DNA from: a virus
Lineage: Duplodnaviria > Caudoviricetes
DNA: 61,805 bases
Strand: one strand, 5' to 3'
Virus record (IMG/VR): IMGVR_UViG_3300024999_000107
Coordinates: 1 to 61,805 of that record
A program made the position numbers and the translations under genes. How positions within the stretch are numbered: the first letter of the stretch is position 1; each line of letters starts with the position of its first letter. A model generated the notes under the pieces. That model was given only the letters and a program-made list of their open reading frames with translations, was not told the DNA's origin and did not search any database. Positions 6,827 to 54,147 of this stretch are shown here, piece after piece.

Positions 6827-7486
6827 ATGAAATATTATAGCATACATGAATTTTCAAAGTTAATATCTAGAACTCCACAAACTCTTAGGAATTGGGATAA
6901 AAATGGAAAACTAACTCCCAATCATACTGGAGCTAATGGTTATAGGTATTACTCGCACCAACAATTAAAAGAAGTTCTTAACATTAAAGATGACTCAGAA
7001 AAAAGTAGAATAGTAATCGGATATTGTAGAGTTTCTTCTAATAAGCAAAAAGATGACTTGCAAAGACAAGTTGATAATTTGTCAAAGTATTTGGAATCTT
7101 TAAACAAACCATATGAGATAATCACTGATATTGGTAGTGGAATTAATTATAAGAAAAAGGGACTCAGGGATTTATTGAAGAAAATCAATAATAAAGAAGT
7201 AGACAAAATAATTATTCTTTGTAAAGATAGACTTCTTAGATTTGGTTTTGAATTAATAGAATATATGGCTAATCTTAATGGTTGTGAAATAGAGATATTA
7301 GATAGCACTGAGAAAACACAACAAGAAGAATTGGTGGAAGATTTAATACAAATTATCACTGTTTTTAGTTGTAGACTTCAAGGTAAACGAGCTAATAGAA
7401 CTAGAAAAATGATTGATGATTTAATCAAGGAAGGAGATGAGGAAATTGATCAAGGGAATCAAAGTGATGCTTGTACCGAACAATAA
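6827..7486 (+). CDS. tnpA: IS607 transposase (MerR-like HTH + serine recombinase)
   Basis: TPQTLRNWD...GYRYYS HTH; GYCRVSS...QKDDL, DIGSG, DRLLRFG. Confidence 0.95.
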   Translation: MKYYSIHEFSKLISRTPQTLRNWDKNGKLTPNHTGANGYRYYSHQQLKEVLNIKDDSEKSRIVIGYCRVSSNKQKDDLQRQVDNLSKYLESLNKPYEIITDIGSGINYKKKGLRDLLKKINNKEVDKIIILCKDRLLRFGFELIEYMANLNGCEIEILDSTEKTQQEELVEDLIQIITVFSCRLQGKRANRTRKMIDDLIKEGDEEIDQGNQSDACTEQ

Positions 7487-8627
7487 GCAAAATACTTTAA
7501 TGTTTCAAAATGCTGGAACCGCAAGGTGGGCATATAACTGGGCATTGGGTAGAGAAAAAGAGAATTATGCAGATGGCGGTAAATTTATTTCAGATAATGA
7601 TTTAAGAAAAGAATTAACTCAACTAAAGAAAGAAGAAAAATTTAGTTGGTTGAATAGTGTTTCTAATAATGTACCAAAACAAGCAATTAAAGATGCTTGT
7701 ACTGCTTATCAACGATTCTTTAAAGGGCAAGCTAAGTTTCCTAAATTCAAGACTCGAAAAAAATCTCCTCCTAAATTTTATCAAGACAATATTAAAATTC
7801 AATTCACATCAACTCATGTTAAATTTGAAGGATTTGCTAAAAGTACAAAGAAAAATAAACAGCAATTAAACTGGGTAAGATTAGCTGAACATGATAGAAT
7901 TCCTTTTGGTAAAGATGTTAAGTATATCAATCCAAGAATCTCACATGATGGTTTAAATTGGTGGATTAGCGTTGGAATAGAATATCCAGATAGTCTTGAA
8001 ACACCATTAAATGAAGGAATCGGGATTGATGTAGGCATTAAAGATTTAGCAATTTGTTCAGATAAAGTTGCTTATGGTAATATTAATAAAACCAAAAAGA
8101 TGAAAAGATTAGAGAAGCAAAAGAAACGTCTTCAAAGACAAGTATCTAGAAGATATGAAGCGAATCGTGATGGTTTGAAATATATTAAAACTAAGAACAT
8201 TATTAAACTGGAACATAAAATTAAATCAGTTCAACACGAACTTAATGGGGTAAGAGATAATTATCTCCAACAAACGACTACTGAGATCGTGAAAACCAAA
8301 CCATCTTTTGTATCGTTAGAGGATTTAAATATTTCTGGAATGATGAAGAATTGCCATTTATCTAAAGCAATTCAACAACAAAGCCTGTATGAGTTTGGAA
8401 GACAGATTAAATACAAAGCAGCATGGAATCATATTGAAGTTAGAATTGTAGATAGATGGTATCCTTCAAGCAAAACATGTCATGATTGCGGTAAAGTTAA
8501 CAAGTTATTAAATTTAAACGACAGAGAATGGGTTTGTACTGGCTGTGGAAGTATTTTAGACAGGGATTATAATGCTTCATTGAATCTAAGAGATACAGAT
8601 AAATACAAGATATTTAAAGTAGCATAA
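7437..8627 (+). CDS. tnpB: RNA-guided nuclease TnpB
   Basis: RuvC motifs GIDVGI, LEDL, DRDYNA; zinc finger CHDC...CTGC. Confidence 0.95.
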   Translation: MRKLIKGIKVMLVPNNKQNTLMFQNAGTARWAYNWALGREKENYADGGKFISDNDLRKELTQLKKEEKFSWLNSVSNNVPKQAIKDACTAYQRFFKGQAKFPKFKTRKKSPPKFYQDNIKIQFTSTHVKFEGFAKSTKKNKQQLNWVRLAEHDRIPFGKDVKYINPRISHDGLNWWISVGIEYPDSLETPLNEGIGIDVGIKDLAICSDKVAYGNINKTKKMKRLEKQKKRLQRQVSRRYEANRDGLKYIKTKNIIKLEHKIKSVQHELNGVRDNYLQQTTTEIVKTKPSFVSLEDLNISGMMKNCHLSKAIQQQSLYEFGRQIKYKAAWNHIEVRIVDRWYPSSKTCHDCGKVNKLLNLNDREWVCTGCGSILDRDYNASLNLRDTDKYKIFKVA

Positions 8628-10371: not shown

Positions 10372-10770
10372 ATGAGTAATGGTTGGATAAAAAATTTATC
10401 ATCAGATGATTACTATGAAATTCAATTTAATAATTATCTAGGTTGGGATAAAATTAATGAAAAAACTCCTTATTATGTTTTATTAGAAATTATAAAAGGG
10501 AAAGATAAATCATCTCAGGATATAGGAGTTGAATTCGATGATATTTCACATGGTAACTTTTATTGGAGAGATTTTACAAAAAGTAGTTTACCATTTGTAG
10601 ATGATGGAGATATATATTGGTCTGGATTTAGTTTTCAATTTGCTGAAGATGCAAAGAAATTTGTTGAGTTATATGGTGGTAAGGGTAATTGGATGGATGA
10701 TTTTGAAGAGTTTAGGATTATGTGTGATAATAAGAGAAATGGGAGGGTTATTAATGAACAGACAAATTAA
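10372..10770 (+). CDS. Hypothetical protein
   Basis: 132-aa ORF with RBS. Confidence 0.7.
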   Translation: MSNGWIKNLSSDDYYEIQFNNYLGWDKINEKTPYYVLLEIIKGKDKSSQDIGVEFDDISHGNFYWRDFTKSSLPFVDDGDIYWSGFSFQFAEDAKKFVELYGGKGNWMDDFEEFRIMCDNKRNGRVINEQTN

Positions 10771-11143
10771 ATTTAGAGCATGGGATATAAATCATAAAGA
10801 AATGGTATATATTAATGATTTATATTGGTTTGAGGAAGAAGGAATTCATAATTTCGAGGGAAGTGGTCATAATTCAAAATATATTTTTATGGAATATACT
10901 GGATTATATAATAAAAGCGATAATAAAACCGAAGTATATGAAAGTGATATTATTAAGCAACTTGGATGGCGAGGTGAATATTATATAGTTGAATTTATAG
11001 ACTGTGCATTTTATGCAGTATTAATAAATAATAAAGTTCCTAAATGTTTGCGTAATAGGTATGTTAAATTAGATGAAATGTACGATTTTCAAGTTATTGG
11101 GAATAAGTATGATAATCAAGAACTATTATATCAAAGGAGGTGA
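10754..11143 (+). CDS. YopX-family phage protein
   Basis: MNRQIKFRAWD...MEYTGL...EVYESDI...VIGNKYDNQELL; true start at 10754 after GGGAGGG. Confidence 0.9.
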   Translation: MNRQIKFRAWDINHKEMVYINDLYWFEEEGIHNFEGSGHNSKYIFMEYTGLYNKSDNKTEVYESDIIKQLGWRGEYYIVEFIDCAFYAVLINNKVPKCLRNRYVKLDEMYDFQVIGNKYDNQELLYQRR

Positions 11144-11469
11144 TTTTAATGAATGAAATATGCGAGGCTTGTGAAAAAGAAATTGAAGAAGGTACAGGAG
11201 ATGAATATACAGATAATAGTTGTGGATATAAGTTTTGGTTGTGTGATAAAATGTATAGAAGAGTTAGATAAGTATTAAATAAATAAAAAATGAGGTGATT
11301 ATTATTATATTTCTATGTGCAGAATGTCACAAAGAAATGATTTGGATTACAGACCAAAATGATAGTGAAATTATTAGTCAAGAATATTATTGTAAAGATT
11401 GCAATATTGAATTGATTAAATACTCATCTATTTAAAACAATAAAATAATAAGAAAGTAGGAATTAAATA

Positions 11470-13026
11470 TTGAATGTATTAAGTTTGTTTGATGGTTTAT
11501 CAGGAGGTCAAATTGCATTGAATAGGGCAAATATAAAATATGATAAATATTATGCTAGTGAAATTAATCCAAATAGTATAAAGATTACACAGAAGAATTA
11601 TCCAGATACAATACAATTAGGTGATGTTACATTATTAGATGAAGAAAAGATAAAACAATTGGGTAAAATCGATTTACTTATCTTCGGATTTCCTTGTGAG
11701 GATGTTTCTATTATTAAATCAAAAACTAGAGAAAGTTTAAAAGGTAAAAAATCTGGGTTATTCTTTGAAGCAATAAGAATAAAAGATTTAATAAAGCCAA
11801 AATGGTTTATGGTAGAAAATGTTGCTAGTATGAACGAGGAAAGTAAAAATATAATAACCAAATATATAGGCGTAGATCCCATTGTAATAAATAGCAGTAA
11901 TTTTTCTGCACAGGATAGAGAAAGATATTATTGGACTAATATACCATTAGGTGATTTACCAGAGGATAAAGGATTAATATTGAAAGATATAATGGAAACT
12001 AATGTGGTAGAAAAACAATATTATAAACAACCATTTGAATTTCATGGATGGGATAAAAAAGTTATAGCAACTGTTCAATTAAAATGTCACGACATGGGGA
12101 AACGAGTTTATAATCCTAATATGAAATGTGCAACACTTACAGCAATTCAAGGTGGTTATCAGGAAAAGAAAGTATATGATAATAATAGATGTAGAAAATT
12201 AACTCCTATAGAATATGAAAGGCTCCAGACAATTGAAGATGATTATACAAAATTAGGAACAAATATTTATTATCAAATATTTGATAATAAATTAAATGGA
12301 GGATTAATTAATATATGCAATTATGCATTATTGAAGGATGTACTAATAAAATCTCAAGTAGAGAAACAAAATTATGTCATAAACACTATCTTAGATTTAA
12401 AAGATACAACACAACAGAACTCACAAGAAACCTCGTGGATAAAAGCAAGCAATGTTCGGTTGAAGGTTGTGAAAGAAAACAAGAAACTACCGGTGGCTAC
12501 TGTATCATGCATTATAAAAGAGAAAAAAGAACGGGGAATATTGAATTACCTAATAAAATTATTATTAAATGCGACTATTGTGATGGAGTGGCAATCGCAA
12601 GAGGAATGTGTAAAAGGCATTATCAAACTTGGTACAGACACGGCGATCCTTTATACACCGATAAAGATAGGTCAAACACAAATTCTCATGGATACACAAA
12701 ATCTCAGGGGGAATATAAGGTCTTACATAGAGAAGTTGCCGATAAAAAACTTGGGAGAAGACTCAAGCGAGGAGAAGTTGTTCATCATGCTAACCTTGAT
12801 AAATTGGATAACGATCAATTTAATTTATACGTCTGTCAAGGAAACAAAGAACATATTAGTTTACATCAACAACTTAACCGTGTTGCAGGAGGACTTGTTA
12901 AATTGGGATATATCATATTTGAGAACGGAGAATATAGAATTAATATCTGATACAGCAAGAAGAAGTGCTTGCGGAGATGGATGGACTATTGATGTCATAA
13001 CATTCTTATTTAATAATATTACATAA
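11470..13026 (+). CDS. C5-cytosine DNA methyltransferase with a 229-codon internal insertion
   Basis: Motifs I (LSLFDG), IV (GFPC), VI (ENV), VIII (QDRER), IX (RKLTPIEYERLQT) and X (GDGWTIDVI); insert between IX and X. Confidence 0.9.
   Translation: MNVLSLFDGLSGGQIALNRANIKYDKYYASEINPNSIKITQKNYPDTIQLGDVTLLDEEKIKQLGKIDLLIFGFPCEDVSIIKSKTRESLKGKKSGLFFEAIRIKDLIKPKWFMVENVASMNEESKNIITKYIGVDPIVINSSNFSAQDRERYYWTNIPLGDLPEDKGLILKDIMETNVVEKQYYKQPFEFHGWDKKVIATVQLKCHDMGKRVYNPNMKCATLTAIQGGYQEKKVYDNNRCRKLTPIEYERLQTIEDDYTKLGTNIYYQIFDNKLNGGLINICNYALLKDVLIKSQVEKQNYVINTILDLKDTTQQNSQETSWIKASNVRLKVVKENKKLPVATVSCIIKEKKERGILNYLIKLLLNATIVMEWQSQEECVKGIIKLGTDTAILYTPIKIGQTQILMDTQNLRGNIRSYIEKLPIKNLGEDSSEEKLFIMLTLINWITINLIYTSVKETKNILVYINNLTVLQEDLLNWDISYLRTENIELISDTARRSACGDGWTIDVITFLFNNIT
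12315..12950 (+). CDS. HNH endonuclease nested out of frame inside the methyltransferase
   Basis: Own RBS (GGAGGA); three Cys/His zinc-knuckle repeats; LHREVA...GEVVHHANLDKLDNDQFNL HNH motif. Confidence 0.9.
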   Translation: MQLCIIEGCTNKISSRETKLCHKHYLRFKRYNTTELTRNLVDKSKQCSVEGCERKQETTGGYCIMHYKREKRTGNIELPNKIIIKCDYCDGVAIARGMCKRHYQTWYRHGDPLYTDKDRSNTNSHGYTKSQGEYKVLHREVADKKLGRRLKRGEVVHHANLDKLDNDQFNLYVCQGNKEHISLHQQLNRVAGGLVKLGYIIFENGEYRINI

Positions 13027-13042
13027 GTAATAAATAAATATT

Positions 13043-13080
13043 TATAACCTCTTGCAATTCGTTGTAGGAGGTTATATAAT
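13043..13080 (+). promoter_or_regulatory. Hairpin (15-bp stem, TTCG loop) coincident with a SigA promoter
   Basis: TATAACCTCTTGCAA-TTCG-TTGTAGGAGGTTATA; TTGCAA-17-TATAAT. Confidence 0.65.
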
Positions 13081-13114
13081 GTTATTAATAAGTAAATCAA
13101 AGGGAGTGTTCAAG

Positions 13115-15247
13115 ATGAGTGAATATCTCACAAAATTGAATCTGTTCTTGAAACATTTAGAAAACAGCGCAAACGAGATGTTAGACATTATTGGTAAAGA
13201 AAATGGAGATTATGAAGATCGGTTTGATATTAAAATAGCTATTAATGGCAAGCAGATTATAATTCCTTTATGTGCTGATAGCTATAGTAGACTAGAGCAA
13301 TTTATAATGGATGAGATAAGAGAAGAACAAGAATTAAGAGGTTCAATGACATGAGAAAACCAGATGTGATTTATACTGATATTCTTCCGAGAGATATTGG
13401 CCTTTATGTTAACCAAGATGATGAGGAATGCCATAAATTTGAATCAGTGATTGTTAATGGTGAGCAGCGATTTGATATTAAAGTGTGGTTAAAGAATTAA
13501 TTTATTAAAATATGGAAAGAGGTTATTAATTATGAATCAGGATCAAATAAATTTAGTGCTTAGAATGTATAATCTTTTTACGGAAATTAGTTTAGAATGT
13601 GAGCAAGATGATAAATTTAACGATTTTATTTCAGAACAAAACATTTTCAAAAAAGTGTTGATGAAATACTGCGCGACTTTGATTGTGCTCAATTTGATAA
13701 AGATAGTAAGTAAAAGGAGGATTAATATTATGAAGAACAAAATTATTTTAGTTGATGGCGAGGAGTATTGGTTAGGAGCAACAATGGGAAAATATAATGA
13801 GAAATATGATTGTTTTATGTTTGGAAATTGTTTTGTTCACAGGTATGATACTATATTCAAGTAAATTTGGGTTAAGTAATGTGCGGCAACAAGTGATAGA
13901 TTAAATATAGGAGAGGAGTAATATCCTCTCCTATATTTTTATAATGAATCAATAAATAATTTTTTCAAATACTATATACAGATAAAACCCAATATGATAT
14001 AATAAGTTAGATACAAATATTAAAGGGGAGTCGCAAGTGATGAAAATATATTATTCTTTGAATTCCGAAGAAATGGGAGAAGAATCACGGAAGGAAAATT
14101 TATTAGATATTTACAAAGAATCAATTAAGTATAAGGAGGACGACAAAGAAACAGGGAGCAATAATAATTATTACTTTGTCAAACATGAAATAGAAAATGG
14201 GATTGATCTAATAACAGAAGGAAAGGTATATAAGAAGAACAACAAAATATATTTTAAATCTGTATAAACGATTGTTTAAGAAAATTAGGAAAGTAAATAC
14301 GAGAATTGCCAAACAATTAATTTTAGCTTAAAATTATATTTTCCAAGGATATTTGAAAGGAATGATTTTTATGTTTAAAAAAGATGAAATGGTATGGTGT
14401 AGACCTCGATTAATTGATGAGCCTATTCTTGGTAAGTATATTGAGAGAATGAGTGCCGAAGAAATTAAAAAAGGATATCGTGATGGGCATATTGTAGAAA
14501 TTGATGGTGTAAAACGTTGGGTTAATCTTGGATTTTGCGGTACAAATAAAGAAATTGTAAAAAACATGAAGTGGTAGTAACTGGCACTTTTAATTGATAG
14601 GAAAGGAGGTATGAGTTTAATTGGAACAAATTGAAAAAGAAATTGAAGAGTTAAGATTACTTGAAGCAGAACTATATAAAAAGTTTAAAGATGTCAATTT
14701 GCAACTTCAGATAAAAATGGAAGAGTATATGCAATTTTTAAAAGGAGGAAGATGATACATAATGTTTAATTTCTTCAAAAAGAAAACAGTGAAAATTGAA
14801 AAACCAAAATTATATAATTGTGCTATGTGTAATGGTAATTATCGAGAAGAAGATATTGATTTTCTTGTAAGTAAGAAAATAGGTAAGAGTATTTGCATAA
14901 GGTGTGCTGAGTATATTAAGGGTAATTTAAATAAGAAAAAGAAGGAGAATGAATATATGAAAAACTTAGAAACCATTATTAAAAACAGAGATGAGTTAAA
15001 GAAATCAATTGATAATATTTGGGAGGAAGTATATTCTATCAAAAAAGGTAGAGAGTGGCCTGAATTATCAAAAGAAGAACAGAAAATAGTTGGACAATTA
15101 CTTGGATTGAAGGCCAATTATTTTAATCAAATGGTAGCATTAAACTTTGTATTGAATGAAGACAATGGGTTATTAGATTATAGGACAAATAAAAATTATG
15201 AAGGTATTGTGGATGAGAGATTCTTTGCTGATGTTAATGTGAAATAA
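13115..15247 (+). CDS. Run of small hypothetical proteins (~13115-13354, 13532-13864, 14037-14267, ~14371-14577, 14762-15247)
   Basis: ORFs with RBSs; some appear frameshifted. Confidence 0.55.
13903..13940 (+). terminator. Intrinsic terminator
   Basis: AAATATAGGAGAGGA-gtaata-TCCTCTCCTATATTT followed by a T run. Confidence 0.85.
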
Positions 15248-16407: not shown

Positions 16408-17286
16408 ATGGGAAAGAAAAATAGAAAATATAAAGATTATCACAAAACTATCGATGGAATTGAATATAAACAGTGTAGAGATTGCCTAGAATGGCTTGTA
16501 ATGAACAATGACAATTTTGGTACAGACAACGGCAATAAAGACAAATATAATATGTTATGTATAAAATGTCTAAGAATATATGGAAACACCATGTATATGA
16601 AAGATAGAGAAAATAGAATAAAGAAATCAACCACTTATCAATCAGAACATAAAAAAGAAAGAGTAAAATGGACTAAAACATATTATCAAAAAGAACATGT
16701 TCAAGAAACACATAGATTGAATAGACTCGAACAAAAAGAAAGTGGATATTATGATAATTATATAAAAAACAATCCTGATAAAGTAAAATTATATACTCAA
16801 AATCACAGACAACATGATATTACAGAATTAGAGTGGATGAGTTGCTTAAAAGTATTTAATAATACTTGTGCTTATTGTGGGATACCTATTGAAAAACATG
16901 TCGCACAAAGAAAAGGAAAGTATTTTATAATGCAATTTCACAAAGAACATGTGGACGATTATGGTTATAATGACATTAGAAATTGTGTGCCATCATGTAG
17001 AGATTGTAATAGTCATAAACATCAATATAATATGGAAGAATGGTTTAGGAAACAAAAATTCTTCTCAGAGGATAAATTAGAATTTATTAAATGGTGGATA
17101 ACTGAGGGTTATAAAAATTACATAGAGGATAAGCCTCTTTACAGAATTGTTAGAAAGCAAAATGAAGGTTTGAAAACATTTCACTGGGAATTATGGACAG
17201 TAGATGAGATGAGAAATATGGTTGAATTAATTGATGTTGGAGATCAAAAGAAAGATTTAAATCTTGAACTTATAGATAATACATAA
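16408..17286 (+). CDS. HNH endonuclease
   Basis: CAYCG...HKEHV...NCVPSCRDCNSHK. Confidence 0.85.
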   Translation: MGKKNRKYKDYHKTIDGIEYKQCRDCLEWLVMNNDNFGTDNGNKDKYNMLCIKCLRIYGNTMYMKDRENRIKKSTTYQSEHKKERVKWTKTYYQKEHVQETHRLNRLEQKESGYYDNYIKNNPDKVKLYTQNHRQHDITELEWMSCLKVFNNTCAYCGIPIEKHVAQRKGKYFIMQFHKEHVDDYGYNDIRNCVPSCRDCNSHKHQYNMEEWFRKQKFFSEDKLEFIKWWITEGYKNYIEDKPLYRIVRKQNEGLKTFHWELWTVDEMRNMVELIDVGDQKKDLNLELIDNT

Positions 17287-51267: not shown

Positions 51268-52155
51268 ATGGAAGAAAAGAAAAATACGTGTTTAGCCAAT
51301 GGATGTAAGGATATTGAACACGTAAAGGGGTATTACAAGAAACATTATAAACAGGTTTTTAGACATGGACATGTATTGGAAAGAACAAGGTTTGATAAAA
51401 ATGAAATAATTATTAATAACGAACTAAATTATGCTGAAATATTATTATATGATATTCACAATATTGTTAAAAACAAAACGATATTGATTGATATTGAAGA
51501 TGTAGAAAAAGTTAAAGATATGAAGTGGAGTTTAGACTCCAAAGGATATCCTGTTACAACTATAAATAGAATAGAAAAAATTAGAATGCATAGAATGTTA
51601 TTAAATTCAGATGTGGAGGTGGATCATGAGAATAAAAATAGGAGAGATAATAGAAAATTTAATCTAAGAGTCGCTTCAAGTTCAGATAATGGTGCTAACA
51701 AATCAATGCAAAGAAACAATACTAGTGGGTTTACTGGAGTGTTTTGGTATAAGAATACTAACAAATGGCAGGTAAATATTCAATATTACAAAGAAGAATT
51801 CCAATTAGGTTATTATAAAAGTAAAAATATTGCTATCTCAGTAAGGTTAAAAGGAGAGCAGTTGATATTTAAGGAATTCGCTCCAAATATTGATAAGTTT
51901 CATATGATCGATGAAAATATTAATAAAGCGGAAACAATTAACGAATTAAAACATTTTGCTCAAATGTTAGACAACTGTATTTCTATTCCAAAAGTAAAAA
52001 GATTGACTCAATACAAAGTAGATAATCTTTATAATGATACTATGGGTGTGGGGATAGAGTACAATAGAAAAGAATTGGCAACTAAGTATAAATGTAGTTT
52101 GTCTACAATAGATGTACATATTAGAAAATTTAAACAGAATAAGGAGATGTCATAA
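51268..52155 (+). CDS. HNH/AP2 homing endonuclease
   Basis: MHRML...VDHENKNRRDNRKFNLR...NNTSGFTGV. Confidence 0.88.
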   Translation: MEEKKNTCLANGCKDIEHVKGYYKKHYKQVFRHGHVLERTRFDKNEIIINNELNYAEILLYDIHNIVKNKTILIDIEDVEKVKDMKWSLDSKGYPVTTINRIEKIRMHRMLLNSDVEVDHENKNRRDNRKFNLRVASSSDNGANKSMQRNNTSGFTGVFWYKNTNKWQVNIQYYKEEFQLGYYKSKNIAISVRLKGEQLIFKEFAPNIDKFHMIDENINKAETINELKHFAQMLDNCISIPKVKRLTQYKVDNLYNDTMGVGIEYNRKELATKYKCSLSTIDVHIRKFKQNKEMS

Positions 52156-54147
52156 ATGAAAAAGATTGAACAAATTCAAAACCTTATTAAAGAACTAAAT
52201 AAGCACTCCTACGATTATTATACCCTTAGTAACCCAACTATCTCAGATTCCCAATATGACTCAAAATACACCCTACTGGAAGCCTTACAAAAGGAATCTA
52301 ATTACATACCAGAAGATAGCCCCACACAACGAATTGGAGATATAGTTTTAGACAAATTTGAAAAACATGAACATAAAGCAAGGTTATATTCAATGGACAA
52401 AGCACAAAATATGGATGAACTTGATGATTGGCATAAAAAGAATGAACAGTTTGTAAAACAAAATAATCTGCCAAAACTTCAATATGTTGTAGAGAAAAAA
52501 TTCGACGGACTGACAATTAATAATACTTATAAAAGTGTATTATTGTCTTCTGCCACAAGGGGAACTGGTGGAATTAAAGGTGAATTAGTAACATCACAAG
52601 TAAAAACAATTAAATCTATTCCATTACGAATTGCTTGTGGTTATGTTATTGAAGTTCATGGCGAAGCCTATATGAAGAAAAGTGCTTTTAAAAAATATAA
52701 TGAAACAGCTAAAATTCCTTTGAAAAATGTAAGAAATGGTGCTGCCGGAGCAATCAAAAACTTAGATTCAAAAGAAACTGCTAATAAAAACTTAGACGCT
52801 TTCTTTTATGACATTGGATACAGTGAAGGAATTAAATTCACAACTTACATTCAAATGATGAAGTTTATCACAGAAATGGGATTGCCAGTAGATCAAGATT
52901 ATTATCTATGTAATACCATTGAAGAAGTTAAAGAAAAAATTGCTTTAATTGAAGAACTTAGACCTAATTTAGATTATGAAATTGATGGAGCAATAGTAAG
53001 CATCAATGATATCAAAACAAGAGAAGCAATGGGATTCGCCACAAAGTTTCCTAAGTGGGCAATTTCATTTAAATATGAGTCAGAAGAAACAACTACAGAA
53101 TTATTAGATATTGAATTCAGGACTGGTCGTACAGGGAAAGTAACTCCTAGAGGAACTTTAGAACCTGTAGATTTAATGGGTTCGACCGTTAGTTATGCTA
53201 CCTTAAATAGCATGGACGATATCAAGAAGAAAGGAGTAAAAATTGGTGCAACAATATTTATTCGGAAGTCCAATGACGTTATTCCTGAAATTTTAGGAGT
53301 AGTAGAGGATAGTATTACAGAGGATATGCTTGAAATTAAAATGCCCACTCATTGTCAATCATGTGGAAGTGAATTAGTACAGGATGGAGTTCATTACTTT
53401 TGTATGAATTCATTAGAATGCAAGGCACAAATTGTAAAATCAATATCTCATTTTGGAACAATCCAAGCAATGGATATTGATGGATTCAGTGAACAAACTG
53501 CGTTGCTCTTTGTTGAAAATGGAATTATCAATAATATTTTGGATTTGTTTAGTTTGGAAAACAAAAAAGATAAAATCATTAAACTTCCTAAATTCGGGAT
53601 TAAAAAATACAATAACCTAATCCAAGCAATTAAAAATTGTAAAAAGGTAAAATTAGAGTCGTTTATTTTTGCTCTAGGAATTGATGGAATTGGATTAGGA
53701 GGTAGTAAAAACTTATGTAAACATTTCAATAATGATATTACTGAAATTATGAGTGCAAAGGTAAAAGATTTATTATTGGTAAAAGATTTTGGGCCAATTG
53801 CTTCAGAAAATGTTTATAGTTATTTTATGGATAATGACAATTGGATTCAAGTATCTGAACTATTAAAACATATTGAGATTATCAAAGAAGAAAAGAAGGA
53901 AGTGATTAATGTGGATGGAGTTTTTGCAGGTAAAAAACTGTACTGCACTGGTAGTTTCGAATCACATAAGAAGGATGAATTAAAAGCAATCATAGAGGGG
54001 TTAGGTGGGGAATTTGGATCAGGTTACGCTAAGTCCTTGGACTATTTGGTGGTAGGTAAATTAAAAGGTTCATCTAAAGAAGCAAAAGCGTTAAAAGATG
54101 GAGTTCCAATTTTAACTGAAGATGAATTTTTAGAAAAAATAAAATAA
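52156..54147 (+). CDS. ligA: NAD+-dependent DNA ligase
   Basis: EKKFDG, ATRG, RNGAAG, EIDG, GRTG, zinc finger, HhH repeats, BRCT. Confidence 0.96.
   Translation: MKKIEQIQNLIKELNKHSYDYYTLSNPTISDSQYDSKYTLLEALQKESNYIPEDSPTQRIGDIVLDKFEKHEHKARLYSMDKAQNMDELDDWHKKNEQFVKQNNLPKLQYVVEKKFDGLTINNTYKSVLLSSATRGTGGIKGELVTSQVKTIKSIPLRIACGYVIEVHGEAYMKKSAFKKYNETAKIPLKNVRNGAAGAIKNLDSKETANKNLDAFFYDIGYSEGIKFTTYIQMMKFITEMGLPVDQDYYLCNTIEEVKEKIALIEELRPNLDYEIDGAIVSINDIKTREAMGFATKFPKWAISFKYESEETTTELLDIEFRTGRTGKVTPRGTLEPVDLMGSTVSYATLNSMDDIKKKGVKIGATIFIRKSNDVIPEILGVVEDSITEDMLEIKMPTHCQSCGSELVQDGVHYFCMNSLECKAQIVKSISHFGTIQAMDIDGFSEQTALLFVENGIINNILDLFSLENKKDKIIKLPKFGIKKYNNLIQAIKNCKKVKLESFIFALGIDGIGLGGSKNLCKHFNNDITEIMSAKVKDLLLVKDFGPIASENVYSYFMDNDNWIQVSELLKHIEIIKEEKKEVINVDGVFAGKKLYCTGSFESHKKDELKAIIEGLGGEFGSGYAKSLDYLVVGKLKGSSKEAKALKDGVPILTEDEFLEKIK

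What the first reader, a model, noticed from the sequence alone, without database searches (positions are those of the whole stretch)
12251..12950. Dual-coded insert: HNH endonuclease nested out of frame in a methyltransferase whose own frame stays open
Seen: a 687-nt insert (12256-12942) bounded by AATTA direct repeats (12251-55, 12938-42) separates MTase motifs IX and X. Exact removal gives the normal ...DDYTKL-ISDTARR.... The insert holds a complete 211-aa HNH gene with its own RBS in another frame, yet the MTase frame has no stop over 229 codons, which is very unlikely by chance in such AT-rich DNA. The HNH uses codons that look rare for this genome (CTC, ATC, CTT) and places TTA before pyrimidines, as expected if stops in the second frame are selected against. 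There are no intein termini and only ~60 nt of non-HNH sequence, too little for a separate group I intron core. Inference: a homing element spares its host gene by overprinting rather than splicing, or by ribosomal bypassing between the matched TTA codons.
Basis: partly seen in the sequence, partly recalled or inferred. Interest (0 to 1): 0.85.

Follow-up and report, generated by a model that had tools for sequence, protein, structure and literature searches.

The report
Out-of-frame HNH gene inside methylase
A selfish nuclease gene sits inside a phage DNA-methylase gene in a different reading frame, and its codons are arranged so the methylase frame never meets a stop, a way of living in a gene without intron or intein that was first described in 2025 in unrelated phages.

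Summary
A 687-nt insert (12256-12942) lies between the last two conserved blocks of a C5 cytosine methyltransferase (ORF 11470-13026, 518 aa). It carries a complete 211-aa HNH gene (12315-12950) in another frame, and the methylase frame has 0 stops over 229 codons.

This is not chance. None of 100,000 synonymous permutations of the HNH's own codons gave 0 stops (mean 5.5). Every other ORF of 100 aa or more in the genome has at least 3 stops in that frame.

Relatives show the same arrangement. Five DNA loci (HNH 42-72% identical, GC 29-62%) and 35 protein clusters carry the same insert, at the same site wherever the flank shows it, with the frame open. Free-standing relatives have stops. No intron or intein signature was found. 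Matched junction codons occur in only 2 of 33 sequences, so ribosomal bypassing is unsupported.

The best reading is a homing HNH element that is translated through and kept in the methylase as a tolerated, probably disordered loop. No experiment supports this yet.

The kind is already published for N6/N4 methylases of actinophages (Arsenault et al. 2025, "ShiLan domain"). This case is an independent lineage, with a different methylase class, HNH family and frame offset. The methylase in this window has three atypical residues at conserved positions, so its activity is uncertain.

The parts
11470..12255 (+). 5' part of the C5 cytosine methyltransferase gene (TTG start, conserved blocks from FDGxSGG through RKLTPIEYERLQ...DDYTKL)
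   Evidence: PF00145 on residues 1-263, E 6e-31. The N-terminus MNVLSLFDG matches homologues. The motif IV triplet reads PCE, against 13 PCQ and 4 PCT among the 18 aligned sequences that have this column.
12256..12942 (+). 687-nt insert, exactly 229 codons in the methylase frame with no stop
   Evidence: Relative L004 has an insert of the same length with identical junction sequences. GC is about 34-36% against about 25-29% in the flanks.
12251..12255 (+). AATTA, upstream copy of the 5-nt direct repeat; it makes the exact boundary ambiguous by 5 nt
   Evidence: Also present in L004. Matched junction residues occur in only 2 of 33 family members.
12938..12942 (+). AATTA, downstream copy of the direct repeat
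12256..12314 (+). 59-nt leader of the insert, not coding for the HNH but open in the methylase frame; it holds GGAGG at 12298-12302, 12 nt before the HNH ATG, and a TAA in the HNH frame at 12309-11
   Evidence: The window and L004 differ here by two compensating 3-nt indels.
12315..12950 (+). [quoted passage not shown]
   Evidence: 72% identical to P0001/L004, with the conserved His and Asn residues kept.
12943..13026 (+). 3' part of the methyltransferase gene (ISDTARRSACGDGWTIDVITFLFNNIT, last conserved block, then stop)
   Evidence: The window has R where 32 of 33 have Y, and D where 32 of 33 have N. AlphaFold packs residues 490-518 onto the core with pLDDT 84-93.
13043..13076 (+). terminator-like hairpin just after the methylase stop
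   Evidence: a consensus match only.

Best explanation
The insert is a mobile homing-endonuclease element, an HNH_3-type gene with its own start codon. It has inserted in phase into a phage C5 cytosine methyltransferase gene between its last two conserved blocks. It has neither an intron nor an intein.

The element has instead evolved so that the host reading frame passes through it without a stop. Codon choice and codon order in the HNH gene avoid NTA followed by a purine and NTG followed by A. Indels in the non-HNH leader come in threes.

Ribosomes that translate the methylase therefore read through. They make a 518-aa protein whose 229 extra residues form a poorly structured loop at a permissive hinge. 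The C-terminal block can still fold back onto the core.

The HNH is made separately by internal initiation. In this copy that means GGAGG 12 nt before an ATG, with a stop in the HNH frame two codons upstream. It presumably cuts insert-free alleles at the conserved DDYT..ISD site, so that repair copies the element in.

Shown here: the anatomy, the non-random stop avoidance, its conservation across diverged copies, and the greater similarity of the element than of its host genes. Inferred: translation through the insert, tolerance by the enzyme, HNH activity and homing.
For: Stop avoidance is not chance. 0 of 100,000 synonymous permutations reached 0 stops. The HNH is the only one of 71 ORFs of 100 aa or more with no +1-frame stop. 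A second HNH gene in the same genome (51268-52155) has 25 such stops.

Replication in DNA found through the HNH, not through the open frame. L004 (HNH 72% id, GC 29%), L005 (46%, GC 34%), L006/L007 (42%, GC 62%) and L087 (44%, GC 33%) all have 0 stops in the methylase frame across the HNH. L004, L006/L007 and L087 show the same methylase site on both sides. L005, cut at its 5' end, shows it only on the 3' side. Permutations with 0 stops: 4, 138 and 5,060 of 20,000 for L004, L005 and L006. Six free-standing relatives have 6-15 stops, close to expectation. Of the 80 metagenome loci, 69 have 1-21 such stops.

The methylase-frame peptide of the insert finds 35 representative proteins at E<=1e-3. 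33 of them match PF00145, 30 above the curated cut-off. Where the part just before the insert is matched, the match ends near profile position 293-308 of 324.

Window against L004. The HNH ORFs differ at 119 positions, spread 35/41/43 over codon positions 1/2/3. About 6.4% of possible single changes would create a methylase-frame stop and 6.8% an HNH-frame stop, so about 7.6 and 8 would be expected; none is seen. Both inserts are exactly 687 nt.

Mobility. Insert identity is 66-72% aa against 39.6% for the upstream methylase part. P0007 and P0008 are 98% identical (282/287) from the block before the insert to the C-terminus, but unalignable upstream.

No intron or intein. An Rfam scan of 11000-13600 at E<=10 gave only a chance miRNA match. 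Pfam found no Hint domain in the 518-aa product.

AlphaFold with a 33-row alignment gives pLDDT above 90 for most of the core, 84-93 for residues 490-518 and below 50 for 269-483.

The same model was proposed for the ShiLan element (PMC11855218, discussion read).
Against: No RNA, protein or methylation data exist for this or any member. No RNA run holds the locus, so splicing is not excluded experimentally.

The methylase of this window may be impaired, which weakens 'the host gene is spared' for this copy. It is the only one of 33 aligned with R for the Y and D for the N of its last conserved block, and the only one of 18 with PCE.

In L087 the N-terminal methylase part is in another frame than the rest. 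L006 shows the same, while its near-twin L007 does not. Some hosts may therefore be pseudogenes, or the assemblies may carry errors.

The 35 protein hits are predicted proteins and are biased towards open frames. The unbiased DNA sample is small (the window plus 5 loci, two of them near-identical).

A low pLDDT does not show that the enzyme tolerates the loop.

The GGAGG before the HNH start is seen only in the window and L004, not in L005, L087 or L006, so how the HNH is expressed family-wide is unclear.

Substitution classes suggest only weak constraint on the HNH protein (rough ratio 0.5-0.7, uncorrected for multiple hits).
Confidence: 0.72

Rival explanations
1. The insert is removed at the RNA level by an unrecognised or highly degenerate self-splicing (or host-assisted) intron whose structure overlaps the HNH coding sequence. 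The open frame would then be a side effect.
For: HNH genes commonly ride in phage group I introns (established knowledge). Annotators of Mycobacterium phage Schatzie wrote 'unable to determine intron boundaries' for an analogous locus. No expression data exclude it.
Against: Rfam found no intron model at E<=10. Only 59 nt lie outside the HNH ORF. Splicing gives no reason for the stop avoidance that is conserved across copies 42-72% identical and across GC 29-62%. Phage introns normally stop the upstream frame early; the LittleE capsid intron does so after 30 bp (PMC11855218, results read).
Confidence: 0.1
2. The methylase is no longer functional in this genome. The frame is open for another reason: avoidance of polarity on downstream genes, a function of the read-through peptide itself, or too little time for decay.
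For: The window's methylase is unique among the aligned relatives at three conserved positions (PCE, Y to R, N to D). L087 and L006 show frame breaks elsewhere in the host gene.
Against: All 32 aligned relatives keep Y and GN in the last block. The 17 relatives that have the column keep PCQ or PCT. Window and L004 differ at 119 positions with no stop in either frame, where about 7.6 would be expected. The codon pattern is a long-term adaptation of the element, not of this host gene alone.
Confidence: 0.1
3. The extra 229 residues are translated and then removed from the protein by a non-canonical protein-splicing or proteolytic step.
For: The frame is open, as for an intein. Ser493 right after the insert is invariant in 33 of 33 sequences.
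Against: No Hint domain was found. The first insert residue is Gly here and varies in the family (17 G of 33), not Cys, Ser or Thr. There is no His-Asn before the downstream junction. The invariant Ser is also present in insert-free alleles.
Confidence: 0.05
4. Ribosomes hop from the TTA at 12253-55 to the TTA at 12940-42 (translational bypassing, as in T4 gene 60).
For: Identical AATTA at both junctions in the window and in L004.
Against: The junction residues match in only 2 of 33 family members. There is no stop after the supposed take-off codon. The gap is 687 nt against 50 nt in gene 60 (recalled). Bypassing would not select for an open frame.
Confidence: 0.02
5. The open frame is a chance feature of this sequence.
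For: GC of the insert is higher than in the flanks, which lowers stop frequency somewhat.
Against: 0 of 100,000 permutations that keep the insert's own codon usage reached 0 stops. The pattern is replicated in independent loci.
Confidence: 0.01

Closest known systems
ShiLan domain / 'hidden' out-of-frame HNH in actinobacteriophage DNA methylases (Gosselin et al. 2023, PMC9957025, passages read; Arsenault, Gosselin & Gogarten 2025, PMC11855218, introduction, results, discussion and legends read)
   Same: An insertion of about 200 aa lies at a conserved site of a phage DNA methylase and is present in some alleles only. There is no stop in the methylase frame, and a complete HNH ORF sits in another frame, ending at the 3' edge of the insert. 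No intron or intein is detectable. The element has diverged less than its host genes. AlphaFold gives low confidence for the read-through peptide. The proposed mechanism is the same (retained loop, no splicing).
   Different: I used Mycobacterium phage Applejack gp54/gp55 (PP978873.1, named in PMC12613952) as the published-type example; that it carries the ShiLan element itself is my assumption.

Its host enzyme is PF01555 (N6/N4 methylase), not PF00145. Its HNH is PF01844/HNH_5, not HNH_3. Its HNH offset is 1 mod 3, so the +2 frame is the open one, not +1. BLASTP shows no similarity to the window's HNH or methylase (E above 2).

Its genome is GC-rich (HNH 61% GC), where an open alternative frame is far less improbable. 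The authors found no ribosome-binding site and a GTG start, whereas the window has GGAGG and ATG.
HNH_3 elements with helix-turn-helix N-termini nested after the QxRxR block of C5 methylases (Mycobacterium cluster J phages Bombitas, Constella, Schatzie and others; metagenome loci L018, L019/L020, L061)
   Same: The C-terminal HNH_3 domain is homologous (39% identity over 78 aa). The host family is the same (C5 methylase) and so is the frame relation (+1 frame open, 0 stops).
   Different: The insertion site and the N-terminal DNA-binding part differ. In Bombitas and L061 the methylase continues in a second ORF or frame downstream, while L018 is one 548-codon open span. I found no description of this set in the papers I read (Pope et al. 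2013, PMC3706429, passages read).
Homing endonuclease genes in group I introns and in inteins of phage genes
   Same: A selfish endonuclease gene occupies a conserved site of a host gene and leaves the host gene usable.
   Different: No ribozyme core and no Hint splicing domain. The host frame is protected by stop avoidance, not by excision.
Out-of-frame homing endonucleases inside inteins (bioRxiv 10.1101/2025.01.02.630785, passages read; bioRxiv 10.64898/2026.09.14.751524, search listing and abstract start only)
   Same: An endonuclease is encoded in frame 3 relative to a host-frame sequence that stays open.
   Different: There the surrounding intein still splices the extra residues out. Here no splicing domain exists.

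Membership tests
Out-of-frame ('hidden') HNH insertion in a phage DNA methylase (kind described by Arsenault et al. 2025) | Insertion at a conserved site, present in some homologous methylases and absent in others | tested here: met
   Insert-free MaeS, FPSV-S27 and HTVC309P have the YT-xx-[ILV]S spacing. 33 insert-bearing sequences share the site.
Out-of-frame ('hidden') HNH insertion in a phage DNA methylase (kind described by Arsenault et al. 2025) | No stop codon in the methylase frame across the insertion | tested here: met
   0 stops in 229 codons, and 0 of 100,000 permutations reach 0. Also 0 in L004, L005, L006/L007 and L087.
Out-of-frame ('hidden') HNH insertion in a phage DNA methylase (kind described by Arsenault et al. 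2025) | Complete HNH endonuclease ORF in an alternative frame of the insertion | tested here: met
   211-aa ORF; HNH_3 at E 1e-4 (below the cut-off), phrog_5351 at 6.6e-20.
Out-of-frame ('hidden') HNH insertion in a phage DNA methylase (kind described by Arsenault et al. 2025) | No detectable intron or intein | tested here: met
   Rfam at E<=10 found none. Pfam found no Hint domain.
Out-of-frame ('hidden') HNH insertion in a phage DNA methylase (kind described by Arsenault et al. 2025) | Element less diverged than its host genes (sign of horizontal spread) | tested here: met
   Insert 66-72% aa against 39.6% for the upstream methylase part between window and L004. P0007 and P0008 are 98% identical over the cassette and unrelated upstream.
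ShiLan element proper (sequence family) | Sequence homology of the HNH and of the host methylase to the actinophage element | tested here: not met
   Applejack gp54 is PF01555 and gp55 is PF01844. BLASTP to the window's proteins gives E above 2, and the frame offset differs. ShiLan's own sequence was not fetched.
C5 cytosine DNA methyltransferase (PF00145) | Profile match and conserved blocks (FxGxG, PCQ, ENV, QxRxR, RxLTxxExxRLQ, GN[GAS]); block names are recalled from the literature | tested here: inconclusive
   The profile match is strong (E 6e-31). However, PCQ reads PCE, and the last block reads RR..GDGW where 32 of 33 relatives have Y and GN. Membership by descent is clear; activity is uncertain.
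HNH_3 endonucleases (PF13392) | Profile match and catalytic His/Asn residues | tested here: met
   22.3 bits against a cut-off of 24.8 for the window. Relatives L005 (27.4), L018 (39.6) and Bombitas (37.2) pass. H157, H158, N160, N166 and N170 are invariant in alignment A1.
Group I intron carrying a homing endonuclease ORF | Conserved ribozyme core outside or around the ORF | tested here: not met
   No Rfam match at E<=10 in 11000-13600. Only 59 nt are non-ORF.
Intein | Hint splicing domain; Cys/Ser/Thr as first residue; His-Asn at the end | tested here: not met
   No Hint family at E<=0.01. The insert starts with Gly and ends ...NIEL.
Translational bypassing element (T4 gene 60 type) | Matched take-off and landing codons, stop after take-off, short gap | tested here: not met
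   TTA/TTA is matched here, but the junction residues match in only 2 of 33 relatives. No stop follows the take-off codon, and the gap is 687 nt.

The most novel reading that the evidence does not exclude
Stop-free overprinting is a general, convergently evolved third way (besides introns and inteins) for homing endonuclease genes to live inside protein-coding genes. The read-through peptide would not be mere filler. Both frames show some constraint: substitutions are spread evenly over codon positions, changes that alter both proteins are under-represented (43% seen against 59% expected), and leader indels come in threes. The peptide may therefore have become a working linker of the methylase. 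Alternatively, translation of the methylase frame over the internal start site may throttle HNH production, tying nuclease dose to methylase expression.
Probability: 0.2. Interest if true: 0.8.

Novelty: new variant of a known kind. Interest (0 to 1): 0.58.

Why it matters
Homing endonuclease genes are thought to survive inside essential or useful genes only by riding on self-splicing introns or inteins. The 2025 actinophage report proposed a third way, an out-of-frame endonuclease whose host frame simply stays open. It rested on about ten GC-rich genes, where an open alternative frame is not very surprising.

This AT-rich case gives the statistical proof that was missing, because stop avoidance is written into both codon choice and codon order. 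It also shows that the strategy arose independently in another methylase class, with another HNH family and another frame offset. It is widespread as well, with at least 35 protein clusters at 50% identity.

It also warns annotators. Such methylases are called as one long ORF, as split genes or as 'introns', and the nested nuclease is often missed. Finally, it points to permissive insertion sites in C5 methyltransferases that may be useful for protein engineering. All of this still needs one simple experiment showing the read-through protein.

Tried and rejected
- Group I/II intron: the Rfam scan at E<=10 over 11000-13600 gave one chance miRNA match only.
- Intein: no Hint family was found.
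- Bypassing: the junction residues match in 2 of 33 sequences.
- First scan of viral contigs with the single HNH protein: 7 pattern matches, none confirmed. A repeat with alignment A1 gave 80 loci, none nested in a methylase; L112 has a methylase on the opposite strand.
- Pelagibacter phages HTVC309P/134P and MedDCM-OCT-S42-C7 matched the methylase in two pieces. HTVC309P gp4 merely has a long variable region, with no ORF of 60 aa or more in the other frames.
- PDB sequence search with the HNH: nothing below E 0.15.
- Promoter scan: 12 promoter-like sites against 14.6 expected, so it is uninformative.
- Expression: no RNA holder was listed. The contigs of four runs showed no joint that skips 12256-12942, and contigs cannot show absence.
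- Earlier findings of this scan were not open to the session.
- ShiLan's own sequence could not be fetched because I had no accession. Applejack (PP978873.1) served as a stand-in.
- Co-conversion near the junction: identity between window and L004 is higher in the last 60 nt before the insert (77%) than further upstream (40-47%, ungapped). That stretch is itself a conserved block, so this is not evidence.
- Supplementary files of the papers were not available. The ShiLan alignments and repository data that could bear on the comparison were not seen.
Full report
**1. The observation**

The window is a whole 61.8-kb, 28% GC contig with phage-type genes. PHROG matches include NAD-dependent DNA ligase, integrase, transposase and several HNH genes.

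ORF 11470-13026 (+, 518 aa) matches the C5 cytosine methyltransferase family PF00145 over residues 1-263 (E 6e-31). ORF 12315-12950 (+, 211 aa) lies wholly inside it, offset 2 mod 3. It is an HNH endonuclease: PF13392 at E 1e-4 (just under the cut-off) and PHROG HNH families down to 6.6e-20.

AATTA stands at 12251-55 and at 12938-42. The 687 nt between them (12256-12942) have 0 stops in the methylase frame, against 34 and 4 in the other two frames.

Removing the insert gives DDYTKL-ISDTARR. Insert-free homologues read DDNYTEG-ISDSARY (MaeS), DDYTAS-LSKTQRY (FPSV-S27) and DNYTSS-VSNSQRY (HTVC309P), so exact removal restores the normal spacing.

**2. Is it more than chance?**

Yes.

- Permuting synonymous codons within the HNH gene keeps its protein and its own codon usage. 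The mean was 5.5 methylase-frame stops, and none of 100,000 permutations reached 0.
- Of the 71 ORFs of 100 aa or more in the genome, the HNH is the only one without a +1-frame stop. The others have 3-68, and their longest open +1 run is 71 codons. Another HNH gene of the same genome (51268-52155) has 25.
NTA codons are 3.8% of the HNH against 10.1% of the genome. All 8 are followed by a pyrimidine, while 68% are followed by a purine in the genome. None of the 7 NTG codons is followed by A. CTC, ATC and CTT are enriched, ATA is depleted, and GTA and CTA are absent.

**3. Relatives found through the HNH protein**

This route is blind to the methylase frame.

A metagenome scan gave 80 loci. The four closest have the HNH nested in a C5 methylase, with 0 stops in the methylase frame:

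- L004: 72% identical, GC 29%.
- L005: 46% identical, GC 34%. The contig is cut at its 5' end, so only the 3' junction into the last conserved block is seen.
- L006 and L007: 42% identical, GC 62%.

L004 and L006/L007 show the same site on both sides. A genome-contig scan added L087 (44%, GC 33%), which shows the same.

Permutation tests gave 0-stop outcomes in 4, 138 and 5,060 of 20,000 permutations for L004, L005 and L006. Six free-standing relatives had 6-15 observed stops, near expectation. Among the 80 loci, 69 have 1-21 stops in that frame. Three short ORFs of 78-79 aa (L027-L029) have 0 without being nested.

**4. Relatives found through the read-through peptide**

The 229-aa methylase-frame translation of the insert finds 35 representative proteins at E<=1e-3 in a library clustered at 50% identity. 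For most of them the match covers nearly its whole length.

33 of the 35 match PF00145 (30 above the curated cut-off). Where the part before the insert is matched, the match ends near profile position 293-308 of 324. One of them, P0020, also carries a Hint/LAGLIDADG intein further upstream.

These are predicted proteins, so they are biased towards open frames. They show breadth, not frequency.

**5. Window against L004 at the DNA level**

- Both inserts are exactly 687 nt and have identical junction sequences.
- The leader differs by two compensating 3-nt indels.
- The HNH ORFs are 81% identical, with 119 differences spread 35/41/43 over HNH codon positions 1/2/3. The usual excess at position 3 is absent.
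- Of all possible single changes, 6.4% would make a methylase-frame stop and 6.8% an HNH-frame stop. About 7.6 and 8 stops would therefore be expected among 119 changes; none is seen.
- Changes that alter both proteins are under-represented (43% against 59% expected). Changes silent for the HNH are enriched (31% against 20%). These rough ratios, uncorrected for multiple hits, suggest weak purifying selection on both frames.

**6. Mobility**

Between the window and L004 the insert is 66% (methylase frame) to 72% (HNH frame) identical in protein. The upstream methylase part is 39.6% identical.

P0007 and P0008 are 98% identical (282/287) from the block before the insert through to the C-terminus, but they cannot be aligned upstream. 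This is what homing with co-conversion of flanks would give.

In a wastewater run (X4), two 151-nt contigs match 12570-12720 and 12774-12924 with 6 and 3 differences. The flanks are covered only at short conserved patches. This is a weak hint, because the contigs are short.

**7. What it is not**

- Not an intron by any available test. Rfam finds nothing at E<=10, and only 59 nt lie outside the HNH ORF.
- Not an intein. There is no Hint domain, the insert starts with Gly and it ends NIEL.
- Not a bypass element. The residue before each junction is the same in 2 of 33 aligned sequences.
- The HNH cannot be a frameshift fusion to the methylase. A TAA in its frame lies two codons before its ATG.

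**8. How it most likely works**

The methylase is translated straight through the insert.

AlphaFold, with 33 aligned insert-bearing methylases, gives pLDDT above 90 for most of the core, 84-93 for the C-terminal helices (490-518) packed onto it, and below 50 for 269-483. This alignment is the window plus P0006 plus 31 of the 35 hits; P0020, P0036, P0037 and P0039 were left out. The result fits a floppy loop at a permissive hinge, but it does not prove tolerance.

The HNH starts internally. In the window and in L004, GGAGG lies 12 and 9 nt before the ATG. L005, L087 and L006 show no clear equivalent.

The HNH stop codon is made from the host's own codons for the invariant Ser and the following Asp (TCT GAT gives TGA). 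In L004 it is made from Ser-Asn (TCT AAT gives TAA).

Homing activity, target site and methylase activity are all inferred.

**9. A caution for this copy**

Among the 33 aligned sequences the window alone has R for the nearly invariant Y and D for the N of the last conserved block (GDGW instead of GNGW). Among the 18 sequences that have the column, it alone has PCE (13 PCQ, 4 PCT). The host methylase here may be impaired or unusual.

**10. Comparison with what is known**

The kind is published. Gosselin et al. 2023 (PMC9957025, passages read) found a 202-aa 'ShiLan domain' in actinophage methylases. Arsenault, Gosselin and Gogarten 2025 (PMC11855218; introduction, results, discussion and legends read) showed that it hides an out-of-frame HNH, has no stop in the methylase frame and has no detectable intron or intein. 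They proposed a retained loop. That work was computational only, and BLASTP with the in-frame peptide found 9 relatives, all from phages.

An announcement names Applejack gp54/gp55 as such a case (PMC12613952, passages read). I fetched it. The methylase is PF01555 (N6/N4 type) and the HNH is PF01844. The offset is 1 mod 3, so the +2 frame is the open one. There is no BLASTP similarity to the window's proteins.

The window's element is therefore an independent lineage of the same strategy, in another methylase class, and it is spread in AT-rich sequences. A literature search for the phrases 'out-of-frame HNH', 'hidden HNH', 'ShiLan domain', 'out-of-frame endonuclease' and 'out-of-frame homing endonuclease' found 5 papers. 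None describes C5 methylases or AT-rich phages in the parts I saw.

**11. Verdict**

The finding is a new variant of a kind first described in 2025. Its value lies in the statistical proof of selection for read-through, the evidence of convergence, and the breadth of the family. The mechanism still awaits a simple expression experiment.

Noticed in passing
L001-L003 (Mycobacterium phages Schatzie, Bombitas, Constella; HNH at locus 2153-2770), L018:1176-1778, L019:3530-4159, L020:1386-2015, L061:363-971: A second nested family. An HNH_3 gene with helix-turn-helix repeats sits right after the QxRxR block of C5 methylases, again with the +1 frame free of stops (0-stop permutations 156-679 of 20,000). 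L018 is one 548-codon open span through all the conserved blocks. In Bombitas and L061 the methylase continues in a second ORF or frame about 300 nt downstream. GenBank annotators treat it in three different ways: one long CDS, nested CDSs, or 'unable to determine intron boundaries'.
   Followed up: partly
window 11470-13026 (residues 77, 498, 503): The host methylase reads PCE, RR and GDGW where relatives read PCQ or PCT, RY and GNGW. It is the only sequence to do so among the 18 or 33 aligned.
   Followed up: partly
A2 alignment, first 18 residues of the insert against first 18 residues after it: Across the family, the start of the insert in the methylase frame weakly resembles the methylase block that follows the insert (for example ..GNGF.. 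against ..GNGW.. in P0012). The mean ungapped BLOSUM62 score is 1.0 against -2.9 +/- 1.0 for shuffled leaders, and 0 of 1,000 shuffles reach it. The sequences are related, so this is no clean test, and the window's own leader scores -7. The ShiLan paper reports a similar resemblance.
   Followed up: partly
P0020 (1000 aa): One C5 methylase carries both a Hint/LAGLIDADG intein after its PC motif and the out-of-frame-HNH insert near its C-terminus, so two different selfish elements occupy one gene.
   Followed up: no
P0009 (544 aa), P0013 (651 aa): After the last conserved block, these insert-bearing methylases run on into the first blocks of another C5 methylase (..SMYDG..YYA.EIDKYA..). This suggests tandem or fused methylase genes, or a permuted order.
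   Followed up: no
window 51268-52155, 16408-17286, 7437-8627: Further mobile-element genes occur in the same genome: an HNH gene directly upstream of the NAD-dependent DNA ligase (52156-54147), an endonuclease VII/HNH-like gene, and a transposase (phrog_506).
   Followed up: no
window 10372-10770 and 10601-11143: Two overlapping same-strand ORFs in different frames (132 and 180 aa) have unusually long open alternative-frame runs (56-65 codons). The second matches phrog_98 on residues 50-176 only, so its true start may lie later.
   Followed up: no
runs X2/X3 laid on window 11473-12249: A 1,363-nt contig of a related methylase (about 89% identical on the laid parts) stops fitting at 12249, just before the insert, and runs on for about 134 nt unlike the window. 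It may be an insert-free or differently occupied allele in the same habitat.
   Followed up: no
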